A DNA stretch of 5,385 bases from a virus (lineage: Duplodnaviria; Heunggongvirae; Uroviricota; Caudoviricetes): IMG/VR virus record IMGVR_UViG_2671180433_000011, one strand, 5' to 3'. The position numbers and the translations under genes were made by a program. The stretch's first letter is position 1; the number at the start of each line of letters is the position of its first letter. Positions 1 to 5,385 of this stretch are shown here, piece after piece. The notes beneath the pieces were generated by a model that had not been told where the DNA came from, ran no database searches, and was given only the letters and a program-made list of their open reading frames with translations.

Positions 1-282
1 ATATCCAGGACTGGCCGGCAAACCGGGTACGCGATCTGTTGCCCTGGAAAGTTGATCTGAGCTCTCAGTAAATATCAATACGGTTCTGACGAGTCGCTTA
101 CCCTGCATCTGTGCCTGCAGCCAGTCTTCCGGTGCGATACGAAAATACGCCTCCGGCTCTGCAGAAATATTCACACAAGGGATATACCACTCCCCCTCCG
201 GCGTGCTTATCACGAAGCCGCACGACTCCGCAGGCGCACACCGCCGGGCATGCGCCAGAATCGCTGATTCAGTCTGTGTCAT
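1..282 (-). CDS. K: Tail tip assembly protein K, N-terminal part; K-like sequence is recognisable only for about 97..282 (ORF stays open to the window edge)
   Basis: Hand translation from the ATG at 280..282: MTQTESAILAHARRCAPAESCGFVISTPEGEWYIPCVNISAEPEAYFRIAPEDWLQAQMQG, which matches my recollection of the lambda gpK N-terminal region. After MQG (plus coordinate about 100) it reads KRLVRTVLIFTESSDQLSRATDRVPGLPASPGY and lacks the expected MPN/JAMM H-S-H-P motif. Not in the ORF track because it is truncated by the window edge. Confidence 0.65.
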   Translation of the reverse strand, partial: MTQTESAILAHARRCAPAESCGFVISTPEGEWYIPCVNISAEPEAYFRIAPEDWLQAQMQGKRLVRTVLIFTESSDQLSRATDRVPGLPASPGY

Positions 283-292
283 AAACCGGGAT

Positions 293-991
293 TTACTGCG
301 AAAGTTTATTAATGGAAAGGAAACCGCCAAAATTAGCCACCATGCCGCGCATCTCACACCCGCGCATGCACTTGCTGCATCTGTCCTTACGGATATCGGT
401 GGTGGGTTTATCGAACTCATCCGCCACAGCCCCGCCCGTGTAACCACACTCATCAGAGCGGTAGGTCCACATACAGGTGTTCGCCAGCATGATGCGACCG
501 GGAAACAGCGCCCCGTCCGTCTCGGTCGGTGTGGCCAGCACAAACGAGGCTGTCATGGCCGTCAGCTCTGACATCTGCTCCACCACCCAGCGGTCGCTCA
601 GCTCCTGCTCCGGGTCCGCTTCCGGATTGCCCGCCACAAAATTCACCGCATCCAGAAAACGGGCATACACCCGGCGGCGGACCACCGTGGCCCCCACCAG
701 GCTCTGCAGGTCCTCCGCCATCCCGGTGACCAGACCAAACAGATTGGACACCGTCAGCGACGGTCTGGCACTGCTGCCCTTCCCGTTCATCTCAAAGCCA
801 CTGCCGTCAATCGGGTATGCCTGGTACTTCCGCCCCTGCCAGGTCACCGGCTCCCCTTTTTCATTCAGCTCATTGCAGAAAAAATACCGCTCACCGCCCT
901 GTACCGTCAGGTCGATTTCCCAGAGTACCACCCGCGGTGACTGCTCTGATTTAACCGACTCGCTCAGACTTTCTTCGTGAATATCCTGCAT
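293..991 (-). CDS. L: Tail tip protein L (minor tail protein with a C-terminal Cys cluster)
   Basis: 232-aa ORF MQDIHEESLSESVKSEQSPRVVLWEIDLTVQGGERYFFCNELNEKGEPVTWQGRKYQAYPIDGSGFEMNGKGSSARPSLTV..., the same length as lambda gpL. The C-terminal cysteines (…CMWTYRSDECGYTGG…DRCSKCMRGCEMRG) are consistent with the reported gpL iron-sulfur site. An AGGTGGTGA Shine-Dalgarno lies 4-5 nt upstream. Confidence 0.93.
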   Translation of the reverse strand: MQDIHEESLSESVKSEQSPRVVLWEIDLTVQGGERYFFCNELNEKGEPVTWQGRKYQAYPIDGSGFEMNGKGSSARPSLTVSNLFGLVTGMAEDLQSLVGATVVRRRVYARFLDAVNFVAGNPEADPEQELSDRWVVEQMSELTAMTASFVLATPTETDGALFPGRIMLANTCMWTYRSDECGYTGGAVADEFDKPTTDIRKDRCSKCMRGCEMRGMVANFGGFLSINKLSQ

Positions 992-1320
992 CAGTTCACC
1001 ACCTGCTTAAACTCCGCGCTGAACTCAACGCGCAACATCCCGACCCGCGCAGACCACCCGGCACAGGTCACCTTTATCTGCCGGTATGCATAGGGTGGCT
1101 TCCACAAAAATGCCTTCCAGCCACCGTGCTCTGCCAGGAACGCTTCCAGATGCCGGGCCTCCTCCCGGGTCACGGAAAGCGTCACCCTGTATGTTTTCAG
1201 GTCAGCATTCAGCCCTGCCGCCATACGCTGTGAGTACCCGTCACCAAAACGCACTTCACGCACCGACGGCTGCGAGTTCACCTCCATATCCGGCTTCACT
1301 TTCCAGCGAAAGGTTTTCAT
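991..1320 (-). CDS. M: Minor tail protein M
   Basis: 109-aa ORF MKTFRWKVKPDMEVNSQPSVREVRFGDGYSQRMAAGLNADLKTYRVTLSV..., the same length as lambda gpM and recalled as closely similar. ATGA overlap with the H stop and a 1-nt TGATG stop/start overlap with L indicate translational coupling. A GGGAG Shine-Dalgarno lies upstream. Confidence 0.93.
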   Translation of the reverse strand: MKTFRWKVKPDMEVNSQPSVREVRFGDGYSQRMAAGLNADLKTYRVTLSVTREEARHLEAFLAEHGGWKAFLWKPPYAYRQIKVTCAGWSARVGMLRVEFSAEFKQVVN

Positions 1321-1757
1321 CCACCGCTCCCTGATAACATACCGCCATCACGCAACTGCAGCCGGAGTTCATCCTGTGCCCCCTTGCGGGCCATCTCATA
1401 CACCGCTTTCATCAGCTGCGGCCCTGCCCGCCCGTTGGGGCCGTCGTTCTGAATCACCACGTGATTGTTCTGATTAAAATTAATGCCTTCCGCCCGCCGC
1501 ATCTGCGCCGGACTTCCGGCACCGCCGACATAACCACCTTCCGCATAGCCCCGCATCAGGCGGTACAGATTGCCGACACCAATCCGGCTGGTCGCCTCCT
1601 TCGTGAAGACAAACTCCCCGCGATGAACAATCCCCGCAGGTTCATATTTACCCCCCCGTCCCCGTAAATCCCCCGGTCGCGAAATGGAAGTTCGCCGCCG
1701 CAGCCTGAATGGCCGTCCCCGTGGAGGCAGACGCACCACCACCGAAAGTACCGCCAA
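1317..1757 (-). CDS. H: Tape measure protein H, extreme C-terminal fragment ORF (true H coding about 1317..1650; upstream part is a different frame of the preceding fragment)
   Basis: ORF from the track containing ...KYEPAGIVHRGEFVFTKEATSRIGVGNLYRLMRGYAEGGYVGGAGS...LRDGGMLSGSGG*. Its stop TGA (1317..1319) overlaps the M start. Confidence 0.5.
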   Translation of the reverse strand: MAVLSVVVRLPPRGRPFRLRRRTSISRPGDLRGRGGKYEPAGIVHRGEFVFTKEATSRIGVGNLYRLMRGYAEGGYVGGAGSPAQMRRAEGINFNQNNHVVIQNDGPNGRAGPQLMKAVYEMARKGAQDELRLQLRDGGMLSGSGG

Positions 1758-2823
1758 TGGCGCTGCCGATACTCCCGACTATCCCCACCATCGCCTGCTT
1801 CAGAAAAATCTCTGTCAGCATGGACAGCACAGAACGGGTGAAACCACGCCAGTTCTGTTCGCTGCCGGTCAGCATCGCTGCCATATTCTGTGCAATACCG
1901 TCAAAGGTCTGCGTGGCCGCGTTTTTAACCTGCGAAAAACTGTCCGTCGCACTTTCCGCCCACTCGCCCCAGCCGGACTTCATCCCGGCCATCCAGCTTC
2001 CACGAAGCTGCTCCTCCGCAGACCAGGTGTTCTTCAGTGCAGATGTGGCCTTCGCCAGCGCAGCCGGATTATCACCGTACACCTCACGAAGGCGCTGCTC
2101 TTCCGACTCCCGCTGCGCCTGACGGTCAGTGAGGCCGCGGGCTTTTGCGCTGATTGCCGCCTGCTTCGCGCTCTGCTGCTGTTCAAACCGCGCCGCCTGC
2201 TGTGCCAGCTCATTCAGCCGCTTCTGGTGTTCAATCTTGTCTCCCAGCTCAGCCAGCTGGCGTTTGTACTCCAGCGTCTCTTTCTCATGAGCCAGCAGGG
2301 ATTTTTCCTGCTCAGATAACTGCCGTTTCGTGGCGGCCTCTTTCAGGACCACATACTGACTTTCCGCTTCCCATAAATCCCGGCGCTGCTGGCTGATTTT
2401 CTCATTCACACCGCTGTGTTTTTCCAGCGTCCTGAGCTCGGTTTCAAGCGCCAGCATGGCTGCATGCGCCCGGTCTTCCTGGCGCTCACCGGCAGACACC
2501 TTCACACCTGACGGCTTTTTCAGCGTCGATTCATAATCCTTTTTTGCCGACGCCATCAGCGTGTTGTAATCCGCCTGCAGGATTTTTCCGTCTTTCAGGG
2601 CCTTATTCAGCTCTTTCTGACGGGCGGTATATTTATCCAGCGGCGTCTGCAGGCGCTCATACGCCTTCTGCGCCTCTCCGGTATACTTCAGCTGTGACGC
2701 CTCACGCTCAGCCCGGTCCCTTGCCGCCAGTTCACCGGCTTTTTCCATATCCGACTGCAGCGTGGCCGCTGCCAGACCCAGACGGGCATTTTCCCGGTCA
2801 TCCCATGCATTTCCGCTTCCCAT
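1648..2823 (-). CDS. H: Tape measure protein H, central/C-terminal fragment ORF (its first ~5 codons are junction-derived)
   Basis: 391-aa ORF from the track. After MGSGNA it reads WDDRENARLGLAAATLQ... through ...AAAANFHFATGGFTGTGG, then stops at a TAA created by the extra base in the C7 run. Confidence 0.55.
   Translation of the reverse strand: MGSGNAWDDRENARLGLAAATLQSDMEKAGELAARDRAEREASQLKYTGEAQKAYERLQTPLDKYTARQKELNKALKDGKILQADYNTLMASAKKDYESTLKKPSGVKVSAGERQEDRAHAAMLALETELRTLEKHSGVNEKISQQRRDLWEAESQYVVLKEAATKRQLSEQEKSLLAHEKETLEYKRQLAELGDKIEHQKRLNELAQQAARFEQQQSAKQAAISAKARGLTDRQAQRESEEQRLREVYGDNPAALAKATSALKNTWSAEEQLRGSWMAGMKSGWGEWAESATDSFSQVKNAATQTFDGIAQNMAAMLTGSEQNWRGFTRSVLSMLTEIFLKQAMVGIVGSIGSAIGGTFGGGASASTGTAIQAAAANFHFATGGFTGTGG
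2361..2808. repeat. Tandem direct repeat, copy A (448 bp; variant allele) inside the tape measure gene
   Basis: Aligns base-for-base with 2810..3257 at a constant offset of 449. Both flanks are identical; 11 mismatches are confined to A-coordinates 2509..2616. Confidence 0.95.
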
Positions 2824-4340
2824 AAATCCCGGCGCTGCTGGCTGATTTTCTCATTCACACCGCTGTGTTTTTCCAGCGTCCTGAGCTCGGTTTCAAGCGC
2901 CAGCATGGCTGCATGCGCCCGGTCTTCCTGGCGCTCACCGGCAGACACCTTCACACCGGACGGCTTTTTCAGCGTCGCTTCATAATCCTTTTTCGCCGCC
3001 GCCATCAGCGTGTTGTAATCTGCCTGCAGGATTTTCCCGTCCTTCAGTGCCTTGTTCAGTTCTTCCTGACGGGCGGTATATTTATCCAGCGGCGTCTGCA
3101 GGCGCTCATACGCCTTCTGCGCCTCTCCGGTATACTTCAGCTGTGACGCCTCACGCTCAGCCCGGTCCCTTGCCGCCAGTTCACCGGCTTTTTCCATATC
3201 CGACTGCAGCGTGGCCGCTGCCAGACCCAGACGGGCATTTTCCCGGTCATCCCATGCCCCCTGAAGGTTCGCACGAAAAGAGGAGGTCTTTCCCCGGCGC
3301 TGGCTCCGGCTCTGGTACCACTGCCATTTTTTATCCGCCTCATCAAATGCCTTCTGCGCACTGGCGAGCATATCCGCTGAGGATTCAGGACGACCGATAT
3401 CCAGAATGGCATCCCACATCGATTTGAATGCCTTCCCTGTTTTATCCGCCCAGGTCTCCAGTGTTCCCATGTTTTCTTTCAGGCGACGGGTCTGCTCATC
3501 AAAGCCTTTCGTGGCGATATCGTTCGCCGCCTGCAATGCCCCGGCCTCGTCTCCGGAACGCTGCAGCTGTGCAACATACGCAATCTGCTCTGCCGTCACG
3601 TTACGGAACTGGCGCGCCATCGCCATCAGTCCCGACGTCGGGTCAGTGGTCAGCTTCCCGAAGGCTTCAGCGACTTTATCCACCTCCACACCGGATGCAG
3701 ACGCAAAACGCGCGACACTCTGGTTGATGGCATCAAACTGTTCACCACCACGCACACCGGCATTCACCAGGGCTGCCAGTGACTCTCTCGCCTGGTTAAA
3801 CGTCAGCCCTGCTGCCTGCCCGGCTCTTGAGAGAGTCAGCATACGATCGGCAGTCAGTCCGGACTGATTACCGGAAAGAACCAGGGTTTTATTAAACGCT
3901 GAAAGCGTGGAATCTCCCTGGTACCAGGCGTACACCAGCGCACCTGTCGCCACCGCCAGCGAGGTGACCCCGACCATCGGCAGGGTGATCGCACCGGCAA
4001 GCCCCCTGAACATGGGGATCATCCCGCCGAAGGAGTCCTTCACCTGACCGCCCTGTTGCAGCAGGATCAGCCAGGGATTCTGACCACCGGCAAGCTGCGT
4101 GGCGATATCCGTAAACTGTGCGGGCAGGGTTCGCATGGCCGCTTTATACTGCCCGACGGAAATCCCGGCTTTTTGTGCAGCCAGCGCCTGGCGGCTCAGG
4201 CCCTGTTCAACAGCACTGGCGGTTTTTCTGGCGTCGGTATCCAGACCTGAAAAATGACGCCTTACCCGGCTCATCTGCTCATCGAAACGGACAGCATCCA
4301 GACTCAGGTCAATAACAAGATCACCAACCGGCTGGGACAT
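2688..4340 (-). CDS. H: Tape measure protein H, N-terminal fragment ORF (true H coding about 2810..4340; the last ~40 codons, 2688..2809, are out-of-frame read-through into repeat copy A)
   Basis: 550-aa ORF from the track. The sequence is H-like up to ...QQRRDLWEAE, then becomes MHGMTGKMPVWVWQRPRCS... exactly where the reading crosses the repeat junction at 2809/2810. Confidence 0.55.
   Translation of the reverse strand: MSQPVGDLVIDLSLDAVRFDEQMSRVRRHFSGLDTDARKTASAVEQGLSRQALAAQKAGISVGQYKAAMRTLPAQFTDIATQLAGGQNPWLILLQQGGQVKDSFGGMIPMFRGLAGAITLPMVGVTSLAVATGALVYAWYQGDSTLSAFNKTLVLSGNQSGLTADRMLTLSRAGQAAGLTFNQARESLAALVNAGVRGGEQFDAINQSVARFASASGVEVDKVAEAFGKLTTDPTSGLMAMARQFRNVTAEQIAYVAQLQRSGDEAGALQAANDIATKGFDEQTRRLKENMGTLETWADKTGKAFKSMWDAILDIGRPESSADMLASAQKAFDEADKKWQWYQSRSQRRGKTSSFRANLQGAWDDRENARLGLAAATLQSDMEKAGELAARDRAEREASQLKYTGEAQKAYERLQTPLDKYTARQEELNKALKDGKILQADYNTLMAAAKKDYEATLKKPSGVKVSAGERQEDRAHAAMLALETELRTLEKHSGVNEKISQQRRDLWEAEMHGMTGKMPVWVWQRPRCSRIWKKPVNWRQGTGLSVRRHS
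2810..3257. repeat. Tandem direct repeat, copy B (448 bp; lambda-like allele) inside the tape measure gene
   Basis: Same alignment as copy A. A single junction base (a, 2809) separates the copies. Copy B continues in frame into unique upstream H sequence. Confidence 0.95.
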
Positions 4341-5192
4341 ATCTCACACCTCCCGGAATCCCCGCTGAAGCCATCATTAATGCGGCATCATCCACCATGA
4401 CATCCGCCACATCCGCAGACGATAAAATATCGCGCCCTCCGTCCCCACCGAACCGGACGCCTCCGGCAAGTCCTGCCGCTTTCTGCATCAGCATTTTGTC
4501 CTCATCCGGCCTCTCCACCTGCTCTTCCTCATGCCGGGGGACAAGCAGACTGAAATCAGAGGGATGCATATCCGGATCGCAAAAAAACAGGCTGAGTACA
4601 GCGTACGTCAGCCCGGAAAAATGCATATCCAGCTGGGTATCCTGAAAATAATGCGTGCGGTAAAAACGGTGCCAGTCGGCATATTCGGTGGATGTCATCC
4701 CGGCAAGCATGGCGCGCCAGTCGGGTCTCCCCATCTCACGCGCCAGTCTGAGGGCAAAGTTCAGCTCGCCGTCGAAGACTTTCCCGCAGAAAAATCATCA
4801 TCAGTCAGCGTGTTATTTTTCGCCACTTCAGTAATATCAGTATCCGGACGAACAACTTCGATCATCCCGGACAGGCACAACACCACGTCTTCCGCCCGGG
4901 CAATGGCATCGGCAGGCCAGGTGGTGAGCACTTCCTGCTCTATCTTCATCACGGCCTCATTCATTGACGGTGACCCCGTTTTCTGCGGATGGTTATGCCA
5001 CAGGGACATCGCCACCAGAAACGCGCCGGTTCTGACGAGATCTTCCACGCTTACCTGCAGGTTGCCGCTGGATTCTGCCTGTTCTGCACGCCGTTTCAGG
5101 AGGGCAAGATGCTCGATACGCTGCAGCGCAGACAATTCGGAAAGCGTGACAGACACACCGTTATATTCAAATTGTTCTGTTTTCAGAAACAT
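4321..5192 (-). CDS. T: Tail assembly chaperone G-T fusion, made by programmed -1 ribosomal frameshift (T-frame part about 4321..4785)
   Basis: The -1 frame downstream of the slip site reads VFDGELNFALRLAREMGRPDWRAMLAGMTSTEYADWHRFY..., matching recalled lambda gpT. The T frame has no separate start context and is entered from G at GGGAAAG. ORF-track entry 4321..4734 is the Met-initiated subset of this frame. Confidence 0.88.
4348..4353 (-). promoter_or_regulatory. Shine-Dalgarno sequence (GGAGGT) for tape measure gene H
   Basis: Minus-strand GGGAGGTG lies about 6-8 nt upstream of the H ATG at 4338..4340. Confidence 0.55.
4761..5192 (-). CDS. G: Tail assembly chaperone G
   Basis: 143-aa ORF beginning MFLKTEQFEYNGVSVTLSELSALQRIEHLALLKRRAEQAES..., recalled as closely similar to lambda gpG (about 140 aa). 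Position between V and T/H is as in lambda. The slippery heptamer lies 5 codons before its stop. Confidence 0.92.
   Translation of the reverse strand: MFLKTEQFEYNGVSVTLSELSALQRIEHLALLKRRAEQAESSGNLQVSVEDLVRTGAFLVAMSLWHNHPQKTGSPSMNEAVMKIEQEVLTTWPADAIARAEDVVLCLSGMIEVVRPDTDITEVAKNNTLTDDDFSAGKSSTAS
4779..4785 (-). promoter_or_regulatory. Programmed -1 frameshift slippery heptamer G_GGA_AAG (G to G-T)
   Basis: Plus-strand CTTTCCC at 4779..4785 is GGGAAAG on the minus strand, in the G zero frame as G GGA AAG. This is the same heptamer and the same position relative to the G stop as the lambda G/G-T frameshift site. Confidence 0.88.
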
Positions 5193-5197
5193 GTATT

Positions 5198-5203
5198 ACC
5201 TCC
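5198..5203 (-). promoter_or_regulatory. Shine-Dalgarno sequence (GGAGGT) for G
   Basis: Minus-strand GGAGGT lies 5 nt upstream of the G ATG at 5190..5192, between the V stop and the G start. Confidence 0.6.
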
Positions 5204-5205
5204 GT

Positions 5206-5385
5206 TTACCCTGCAGCGCCCGCTTCAGTAACGGTGACTTCAGCCACTGCGGCGAACTGACCATTTCCGCTCACCACAGGGATCTGCACCTTACCTGTCG
5301 CCACGCCGTTTACCGTAATTGTCATATCTTTCACACTAATGGTGGCTTTCGACGGATCGGCGGAAACCGCTCTGAACGTCTTGTC
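5206..5385 (-). CDS. V: Major tail protein V, C-terminal part (5' end lies beyond the right window edge)
   Basis: Hand translation of the minus strand from 5385 down to the TAA at 5206..5208 gives ...[59 protein letters not shown], which matches my recollection of the Ig-like C-terminal domain of lambda gpV. It sits directly upstream of G as in lambda. Not in the ORF track because it is truncated by the window edge. Confidence 0.85.

What the first reader, a model, noticed from the sequence alone, without database searches (positions are those of the whole stretch)
2361..3257. Frame-breaking 449-bp tandem duplication inside the tape measure gene, with copies derived from two different alleles
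Copies A (2361..2808) and B (2810..3257) are direct tandem repeats separated by one base. The period of 449 is not a multiple of three, so translation from the H N-terminus runs into junk and stops at 2688. The copies differ at 11 positions, all within A-coordinates 2509..2616, with about 150 bp and about 190 bp of perfectly identical flank. By my codon-by-codon reading, 8 of the 11 differences are synonymous third-position changes and 3 are conservative replacements (S/A, S/A, K/E). That pattern means both copies diverged under purifying selection as parts of functional genes before being joined. It points to recombination between two related lambdoid tape measure alleles, or an assembly chimera of two prophage copies, rather than decay after an in-place duplication. 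Tape measure length sets tail length, so an in-frame version would add about 150 residues (roughly 20 nm of tail).
Basis: seen in the sequence. Interest (0 to 1): 0.62.

Follow-up and report, generated by a model that had tools for sequence, protein, structure and literature searches.

The report
False duplication at a scaffold gap
The apparent 449-bp duplication that breaks the phage tail tape measure gene is an assembly artefact: two contigs with overlapping ends were placed end to end around a one-base gap (an N in the public record), so there is nothing biological to explain.

Summary
The repeat is in the window as described. Copy A is 2361-2808 and copy B is 2810-3257. They differ at 11 positions within 2509-2616: 8 synonymous third-position changes plus S/A, S/A and K/E.

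The window is a whole public draft contig, GCA_001286205.1 CYBE01000102.1 (5,385 bp). In that record the "one-base spacer" at 2809 is an N. So the window is two contigs, 1-2808 and 2810-5385, joined by a scaffolder across a 1-N gap. Their ends overlap by 448 bp and were never merged. No sequenced read supports the junction, so the 449-bp period and the frame break are not observed facts.

The unit is bounded on both sides by sites where natural tape measure alleles differ (2360 C/T, 3258 C/G). Between those sites the alleles are identical. This is the signature of assembly-graph branch points.

The junction is absent from 5,426 complete E. coli genomes, the GTDB species representatives, IMG/VR and JGI metagenomes. 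Related draft contigs run through the region in single copy.

The prophage does show real decay elsewhere: a shared C7 frameshift in H, and an IS66-family end that replaces the rest of K at the contig edge.

Verdict: not a real feature.

The parts
1..100 (.). End of an IS66-like (ISCro1-family) insertion sequence at the contig edge
   Evidence: 100/100 identity to many annotated ISCro1-family copies in E. coli. Matches of the rest of the window to prophage tail modules begin at base 101.
101..282 (-). N-terminal 60 codons of tail gene K (C40 peptidase), cut off by the IS end
   Evidence: Aligns to the start of the annotated C40 family peptidase of E. coli M15; translation. K is intact (247 aa) in sibling contigs.
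293..991 (-). Minor tail protein L (232 aa)
   Evidence: ORF. The exact protein is found on 13 public contigs with Pfam PF05100.
991..1320 (-). Minor tail protein M (109 aa)
   Evidence: ORF; PF05939 on the same gene in L009 and its siblings.
1317..2808 (-). Contig 1 part of tape measure gene H: the C-terminal half, ending in the copy-A version of the shared block
   Evidence: 99.9% identical and colinear with L006 and L011, which continue in single copy. PF09718 on the product in L009.
1651..1657 (-). C7 homopolymer (C6 in intact H genes): a real +1 frameshift that puts about the last 110 codons of H out of frame
   Evidence: C7 in the window and in six other draft assemblies (L006, L008, L010, L011, L012, L015); C6 in L001 and L016. 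ORFs 1648..2823 and 1317..1757.
2361..2808 (-). Copy A: the 3' end of contig 1, a 448-bp block that is 100% identical to the single-copy block of natural H alleles
   Evidence: 100% identical to L001, L006, L011, L022 and L023.
2809..2809 (.). Scaffold gap: N in the public record, shown as A in the window
   Evidence: It is the only difference between the window and CYBE01000102.1, and the only N in that record.
2810..3257 (-). Copy B: the 5' end of contig 2, the same 448-bp block with a different allele in the 2958-3065 patch
   Evidence: 11 differences from copy A, each one a state seen in other natural H alleles. The full B haplotype was not found elsewhere.
3258..4340 (-). Contig 2 part of H: the N-terminal portion
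   Evidence: About 99.6% identical to E. coli M15 H (8 differences across 3258-5385). It differs from the L006/L011 continuation starting exactly at 3258.
4321..4734 (-). Tail assembly protein T frame (the GT fusion part)
   Evidence: ORF. The exact protein is widespread, with PF06223.
4761..5192 (-). Tail assembly chaperone G, with slippery GGGAAAG at 4779-4785
   Evidence: ORF; PF06894 in L009. The heptamer was read in the sequence.
5206..5385 (-). C-terminal 59 codons of major tail protein V (Big_2 domain), cut by the contig end
   Evidence: Gene 1-180 of L009 with PF02368; translation.

Best explanation
The 'tandem duplication' is a false duplication created when a short-read draft assembly was scaffolded.

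Inferred: the source genome carries at least two lambdoid prophages. Their tape measure (H) genes share a near-identical 448-bp block. The alleles differ just outside that block, at 2360 and 3258, and in a 108-bp patch inside it.

Shown: the boundaries coincide with natural allele differences. One contig was built from the K-L-M side, runs through the block with the A patch, and stops at 2808, the last base before the alleles diverge. The other contig was built from the V-G-T side, runs through the same block with the B patch, and stops at 2810, which corresponds to 2361. That is the first base after the other divergent site.

Shown: a gap lies between the two contigs. A scaffolder linked them by read pairs, failed to merge the imperfect 448-bp overlap, and wrote them end to end with a single N. 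The window preparation later turned that N into 'A'.

In the real genome the block occurs once per H gene. The junction, the 449-bp period and the frame break do not exist.

Inferred from relatives, at about 60:40: the two halves belong to two different prophages, so the join itself is chimeric, rather than one locus with a redundant overlap.
For: 1. The window equals the public contig CYBE01000102.1 (GCA_001286205.1, 5,385 bp) except that 2809 is N in the record. It is the record's only N.

2. The junction 36-mer is absent from the GTDB species-representative genomes, IMG/VR and JGI metagenomes.

3. No listed hit in 5,426 complete E. coli genomes matches the junction contiguously, although 3,714 of those genomes carry a match to the query spanning the repeat. 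Every listed hit is single-copy: the record span is 752 bp for the 1,201-bp query, and the junction query splits into two pieces that map to the two ends of one 448-bp block.

4. L006 and the same-batch sibling L011 are 99.9% identical to 101-2808 and pass through the block once, with no N.

5. Both unit boundaries sit exactly at natural polymorphic sites. Position 2360 is C or T, and position 3258 is C or G. The L006-type and L022-type alleles differ at ...2134, 2360 | 3258, 3270... and are identical in between. The chance that both flanking bases are polymorphic is about 0.003-0.008.

6. L006 and L011 diverge from the window's right half starting precisely at 3258 and stay about 4-5% different from there on.

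7. The contig of sibling assembly L008 ends at 2508, the last base before the first A/B difference. This fits a graph branch at that patch in a related strain.

8. E. coli genomes that carry this H sequence have a median of 2 and up to 8 copies, so co-resident alleles are the norm.

9. All 11 B bases are natural variants of other H alleles.

10. [quoted passage not shown] Greedy scaffolders such as SSPACE and GapFiller make false joins and leave N gaps (PMC5320598).
Against: - I could not see the reads, the assembly graph or the assembly method of GCA_001286205.1. The scaffolder's behaviour (a single N written for an unmerged negative gap) comes from my own recollection of SSPACE and was not verified here.
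- I could not retrieve the other contigs of the same assembly. The second H allele in that genome is therefore inferred, not shown.
- The complete copy-B haplotype was not found in any other public sequence searched, so its source allele is unsampled.
- An N does not by itself prove that a real junction is absent. It only shows that none was sequenced.
Confidence: 0.94

Rival explanations
1. A real tandem duplication of about 448 bp exists inside H in this isolate. The assembler could not call the junction base(s) and left an N.
For: The two copies are adjacent and in the same orientation in a deposited record. Prophages in this lineage are decaying anyway, with a C7 frameshift and an IS end.
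Against: A real junction would produce junction-spanning reads and k-mers, and there would be no gap. Both unit ends coincide exactly with natural allele-divergence sites, which has a chance of about 0.003-0.008. The junction is found nowhere else. The closest relatives L006 and L011 are single-copy. The copies carry different alleles, which an in-place duplication does not predict.
Confidence: 0.03
2. The scaffold adjacency is correct and this is one prophage. Contig 1 and contig 2 are true neighbours that overlap by 448 bp. One of the two patch versions (A or B) was threaded in from a second H allele elsewhere in the genome. This is a sub-case of the artefact explanation, without a chimeric join.
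For: Natural genomes exist in which both halves are contiguous with a single block. E. coli M15 matches the left half at 98.5% and the right half at 99.6% outside the patch. A scaffolder needs read pairs linking the two contigs (PMC5320598).
Against: The closest relatives of contig 1 (L006, L011; 99.9%) continue with a different upstream H sequence that diverges from contig 2 exactly at 3258. M15 is only 98.5% identical to contig 1.
Confidence: 0.35
3. The A and B versions come from a mixed or contaminated culture, two strains with different H alleles, rather than from two prophages in one genome.
For: The B haplotype is unsampled elsewhere. The graph signature would look the same.
Against: Multiple H alleles per genome are the norm, with a median of 2 per genome. 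A sibling assembly breaks at the same patch, which suggests a lineage property rather than a one-off contamination.
Confidence: 0.05

Closest known systems
False 'heterotype' duplications flanking assembly gaps (Ko et al. 2022, Genome Biol 23:205, PMC9516828; earlier Kelley & Salzberg 2010, cited there)
   Same: Two adjacent near-identical copies are separated by an assembly gap. The copies differ by allelic variants. The region is single-copy in better or independent assemblies. The result is a spurious gene disruption or gene gain.
   Different: There, the two versions are the haplotypes of a diploid genome. Here they are most likely paralogous tape measure alleles of co-resident prophages in a haploid bacterium. 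The read-depth and discordant-pair criteria could not be tested here.
Scaffolding and gap-closing of Illumina bacterial drafts (Velvet + SSPACE + GapFiller type pipelines; Page et al. 2016, PMC5320598)
   Same: Contigs joined by read pairs get N gaps. The authors state that the greedy tools can make false joins. The window is a short contig that ends in repeats (an IS end and a V gene), as expected of such drafts.
   Different: The method used for GCA_001286205.1 is not known to me. That a single N stands for an unmerged negative gap is my own recollection of SSPACE, not a result obtained here.
Phage lambda gpH tape measure protein and tail-length determination (Katsura & Hendrix; own knowledge)
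   Same: The gene is a lambda-type H, flanked by G, T (with the GGGAAAG slip site), M, L and K. It has TMP_2 and Tape_meas_lam_C domains in intact relatives.
   Different: In-frame duplications in H lengthen tails experimentally. Here no duplication exists, so no inference about tail length applies. The real lesion in this H is the C7 frameshift near the C-terminus.

Membership tests
False duplication at an assembly gap | An assembly gap (N) lies between the two copies | tested here: met
   Position 2809 is N in CYBE01000102.1 and is the only N in the record.
False duplication at an assembly gap | The region is single-copy in independent or related assemblies | tested here: met
   L006 and L011 (99.9% to 101-2808) are single-copy. 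All listed matches in complete E. coli genomes are single-copy, and the junction is absent from every collection scanned.
False duplication at an assembly gap | The copies differ by pre-existing allelic variants, not new mutations | tested here: met
   All 11 B states occur in natural H alleles L002-L005. There are 8 synonymous and 3 conservative changes.
False duplication at an assembly gap | Copy ends coincide with assembly-graph branch points, the sites where co-resident alleles diverge | tested here: met
   Positions 2360 and 3258 are natural polymorphic sites that bound a block identical between the L006-type and L022-type alleles. The chance of this is about 0.003-0.008.
False duplication at an assembly gap | Read depth and read pairs are inconsistent with two copies | not testable with these tools
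   There is no access to the reads of the source isolate.
Genuine tandem duplication within a tape measure gene | A sequenced junction joins the end of one copy to the start of the next | tested here: not met
   The junction base is N. No public sequence holds the junction.
Genuine tandem duplication within a tape measure gene | Recurrence in related isolates or independent assemblies | tested here: not met
   Of the other public contigs shown that carry the identical L protein, none shows the duplication. Two run through the block once.
Lambda-type tail module (V-G-T-H-M-L-K) | Gene order and the family domains of gpH (TMP_2, Tape_meas_lam_C), G, T, M and L | tested here: met
   Precomputed Pfam hits on L009 and its relatives, and RefSeq annotation of E. 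coli M15.

The most novel reading that the evidence does not exclude
The isolate really carries an out-of-frame tandem duplication of about 448 bp in its tape measure gene. On this reading it formed by illegitimate recombination between two co-resident prophage H alleles exactly at their divergence points, and the assembler merely failed to call the junction base.
Probability: 0.03. Interest if true: 0.3.

Novelty: not a real feature. Interest (0 to 1): 0.03.

Why it matters
There is no biological significance. The tape measure gene is not duplicated, and no tail-length or recombination inference should be drawn.

The practical value is methodological. Windows taken from scaffolded drafts can contain N gaps. 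Here the N had been rendered as a normal base, and that converted a routine scaffold gap into an apparent frame-breaking duplication. Flagging N positions, or checking for near-identical sequence on both sides of a former gap, would remove this class of false finding.

It is also a clean bacterial example of how co-resident prophage alleles break and mis-join short-read assemblies.

Tried and rejected
- **Other occurrences of the junction.** I searched for the 36-mer junction in GTDB representative genomes, IMG/VR and JGI metagenomes and in complete E. coli genomes. Nothing was found.
- **Junction-spanning ORFs.** I looked up the 550-aa and 391-aa junction-spanning ORFs by exact sequence. Neither is on record. 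The reason became clear later: the record's own product contains an X from the N.
- **A natural donor of copy B.** No complete E. coli genome has copy B (best 97.7%, which is the A type). None has the B patch (best 3 mismatches in 128). The exact 109-nt patch is absent from IMG/VR and JGI metagenomes. The donor allele remains unsampled.
- **Gene conversion after a real duplication.** I considered this and rejected it because of the N and the boundary coincidence.
- **A finished reference for the contig-1 prophage lineage.** The best match among complete E. coli genomes is only 98.6%.
- **The second H allele of the same assembly.** I tried to reach it through the T protein. T is too widespread (27,721 blocks), and only long contigs from other genomes were returned.
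- **Literature on the source.** The assembly accession appears in no paper held in the library.
- **The single-N rule.** I found no citable statement that SSPACE writes a single N in this situation. That point stays marked as my own knowledge.

Full report
**What is in the window.** All genes lie on the minus strand and form a lambda-type tail module:
- the end of V (5206-5385);
- G (4761-5192), with the GGGAAAG slip site at 4779-4785;
- the T frame (4321-4734);
- the tape measure gene H, starting at 4340;
- M (991-1320) and L (293-991);
- the first 60 codons of K (101-282).

Bases 1-100 are the end of an IS66-like ISCro1-family element.

**Checking the observation.** The repeat is real in the window as given. 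Tandem Repeats Finder reports 2361-3257 with period 449, two copies and 97% matches. A base-by-base comparison gives copy A at 2361-2808, one base at 2809 and copy B at 2810-3257. In the H reading frame, eight differences are synonymous third-position changes. The other three are S/A, S/A and K/E. With 'A' at 2809, the ORF that starts at 4340 stops at 2688.

**The decisive result.** An exact look-up of the L protein returned 13 public contigs. One of them, CYBE01000102.1 of assembly GCA_001286205.1, is 5,385 bp long. Its reverse complement is identical to the window at every position but one: window 2809 is 'A', and the record has 'N'. The record reads ...gcggaaaNgcatggga..., and this is its only N.

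So the "one-base spacer" is a scaffold gap. The window consists of two contigs, 1-2808 and 2810-5385. They were placed end to end, and their ends overlap by 448 bp with 11 mismatches. The junction was never sequenced, so the 449-bp period and the frame break are artefacts of treating the N as a base.

**Independent support.**
- The 36-nt junction is absent from the GTDB species-representative genomes, IMG/VR and JGI metagenomes.
- Of 5,426 complete E. coli genomes, 3,714 match the region. Every listed match is single-copy. The 1,201-bp query spans 752 bp in the records. The junction query splits into two pieces that map to the two ends of one 448-bp block.
- Two draft contigs are 99.9% identical to window 101-2808: L006 (GCA_045009895.1) and L011 (GCA_001284885.1, from the same accession batch). 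Both run through the block once and contain no N.

**Why the contigs end where they do.** I compared the window with 11 natural H alleles.
- The base just left of the unit, 2360, is a common C/T polymorphism.
- The base just right of it, 3258, is a C/G polymorphism.
- The A-type block between them is 100% identical in five alleles.
- The L006-type and L022-type alleles differ at ...2134, 2360 | 3258, 3270... and nowhere in between.

The "duplicated unit" is therefore exactly the maximal identical block between natural allele types. Between 5% and 9% of H positions are polymorphic in this set. The chance that both flanking bases are polymorphic is therefore about 0.003-0.008.

This is what de Bruijn-graph contig ends look like when two alleles coexist. 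Each contig runs through the shared block from its own side and stops where the exits branch. A sibling assembly's contig (L008) stops at 2508, the last base before the first A/B difference, so the patch is also a branch point in a related strain. Co-resident H genes are normal in E. coli: genomes that have this sequence carry a median of 2 and up to 8 copies.

**Origin of the two versions.** Copy A is identical to the block in E. coli M15 and several other genomes. Each of the 11 copy-B bases is a state found in other natural H alleles.

The complete B haplotype was not found anywhere else. The best match in complete E. coli genomes has 3 mismatches in 128, and there is no exact match in IMG/VR or JGI metagenomes. 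Its donor allele, presumably in a second prophage of the same isolate, is unsampled.

**Are the two halves from one prophage?** L006 and L011 share contig 1 at 99.9%. Upstream they continue with a sequence that differs from contig 2 starting exactly at 3258 and stays about 4-5% different. This suggests that contig 1 and contig 2 belong to different prophages and that the scaffold join is chimeric.

Against that, E. coli M15 shows that both halves can be contiguous in nature, though it matches contig 1 at only 98.5%. I put the chimeric join at roughly 60:40 over a correct adjacency with a redundant overlap. Either way the duplication is false.

**Relation to what is known.** This is the known class of false duplications in assemblies. 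[quoted passage not shown] 2022, PMC9516828). High-throughput bacterial pipelines that scaffold with SSPACE and close gaps with GapFiller insert N gaps at joins. Their authors note that these greedy tools can make false joins (Page et al. 2016, PMC5320598).

That SSPACE writes a single N when it estimates a negative gap but cannot merge the overlap is my own recollection. I could not confirm it in the library. I also do not know which pipeline produced this record.

**What is real in the window.**
- H carries a C7 run at 1651-1657 where intact H genes have C6. The same C7 is present in six other draft assemblies. This prophage lineage therefore has a genuine frameshift that puts about the last 110 codons of H out of frame.
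- K is replaced after codon 60 by an ISCro1-family end at the contig edge, while K is intact in sibling contigs.
- The contig-1 lineage is not represented among complete E. coli genomes (best 98.6%).

**Verdict.** The repeat is in the window, but it is a scaffolding artefact (confidence 0.94). A real duplication with an uncalled junction base remains possible at about 3%. Reads from the isolate or a PCR across 2300-3300 would settle it.

Noticed in passing
window 2809 (L009 position 2577): The window shows 'A' where the public record has 'N'. The preparation of the window turned an assembly gap into an ordinary base, and that created this finding. Other windows from scaffolded drafts may be affected in the same way.
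   Followed up: yes
window 1651-1657: There is a C7 homopolymer in H where intact H genes (L001, L016) have C6. The same C7 occurs in six other draft assemblies (L006, L008, L010, L011, L012, L015). This is a genuine lineage-wide frameshift that puts about the last 110 codons of the tape measure protein out of frame.
   Followed up: partly
window 1-100 and 101-282: The contig ends in 100 bp that are 100% identical to the end of an IS66-like ISCro1-family element, directly abutting codon 60 of tail gene K. K is intact in sibling contigs. This is either a strain-specific IS insertion or another repeat-edge join.
   Followed up: partly
window 2958-3065 (copy-B patch): The 11-site B haplotype was not found in 5,426 complete E. 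coli genomes, IMG/VR or JGI metagenomes, although each single variant is known from other H alleles. Its donor allele is unsampled.
   Followed up: partly
L008 (GCA_001286145.1), contig end = window 2508: A sibling assembly's contig stops exactly one base before the first A/B difference. Other siblings stop at 1592-1973. The H gene is a recurrent assembly breakpoint in this lineage.
   Followed up: partly
window 4779-4785 (minus strand): The slippery heptamer GGGAAAG lies 16 nt upstream of the G stop codon, with the T frame following. This is the ordinary lambda G/GT programmed -1 frameshift site.
   Followed up: no
window 101-2808: No complete RefSeq E. coli genome matches this half better than 98.6%. 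Matches at 99.8% or better come only from draft assemblies, so the source lineage (possibly Shigella or an under-sampled E. coli clade; not determined) lacks a finished reference.
   Followed up: partly
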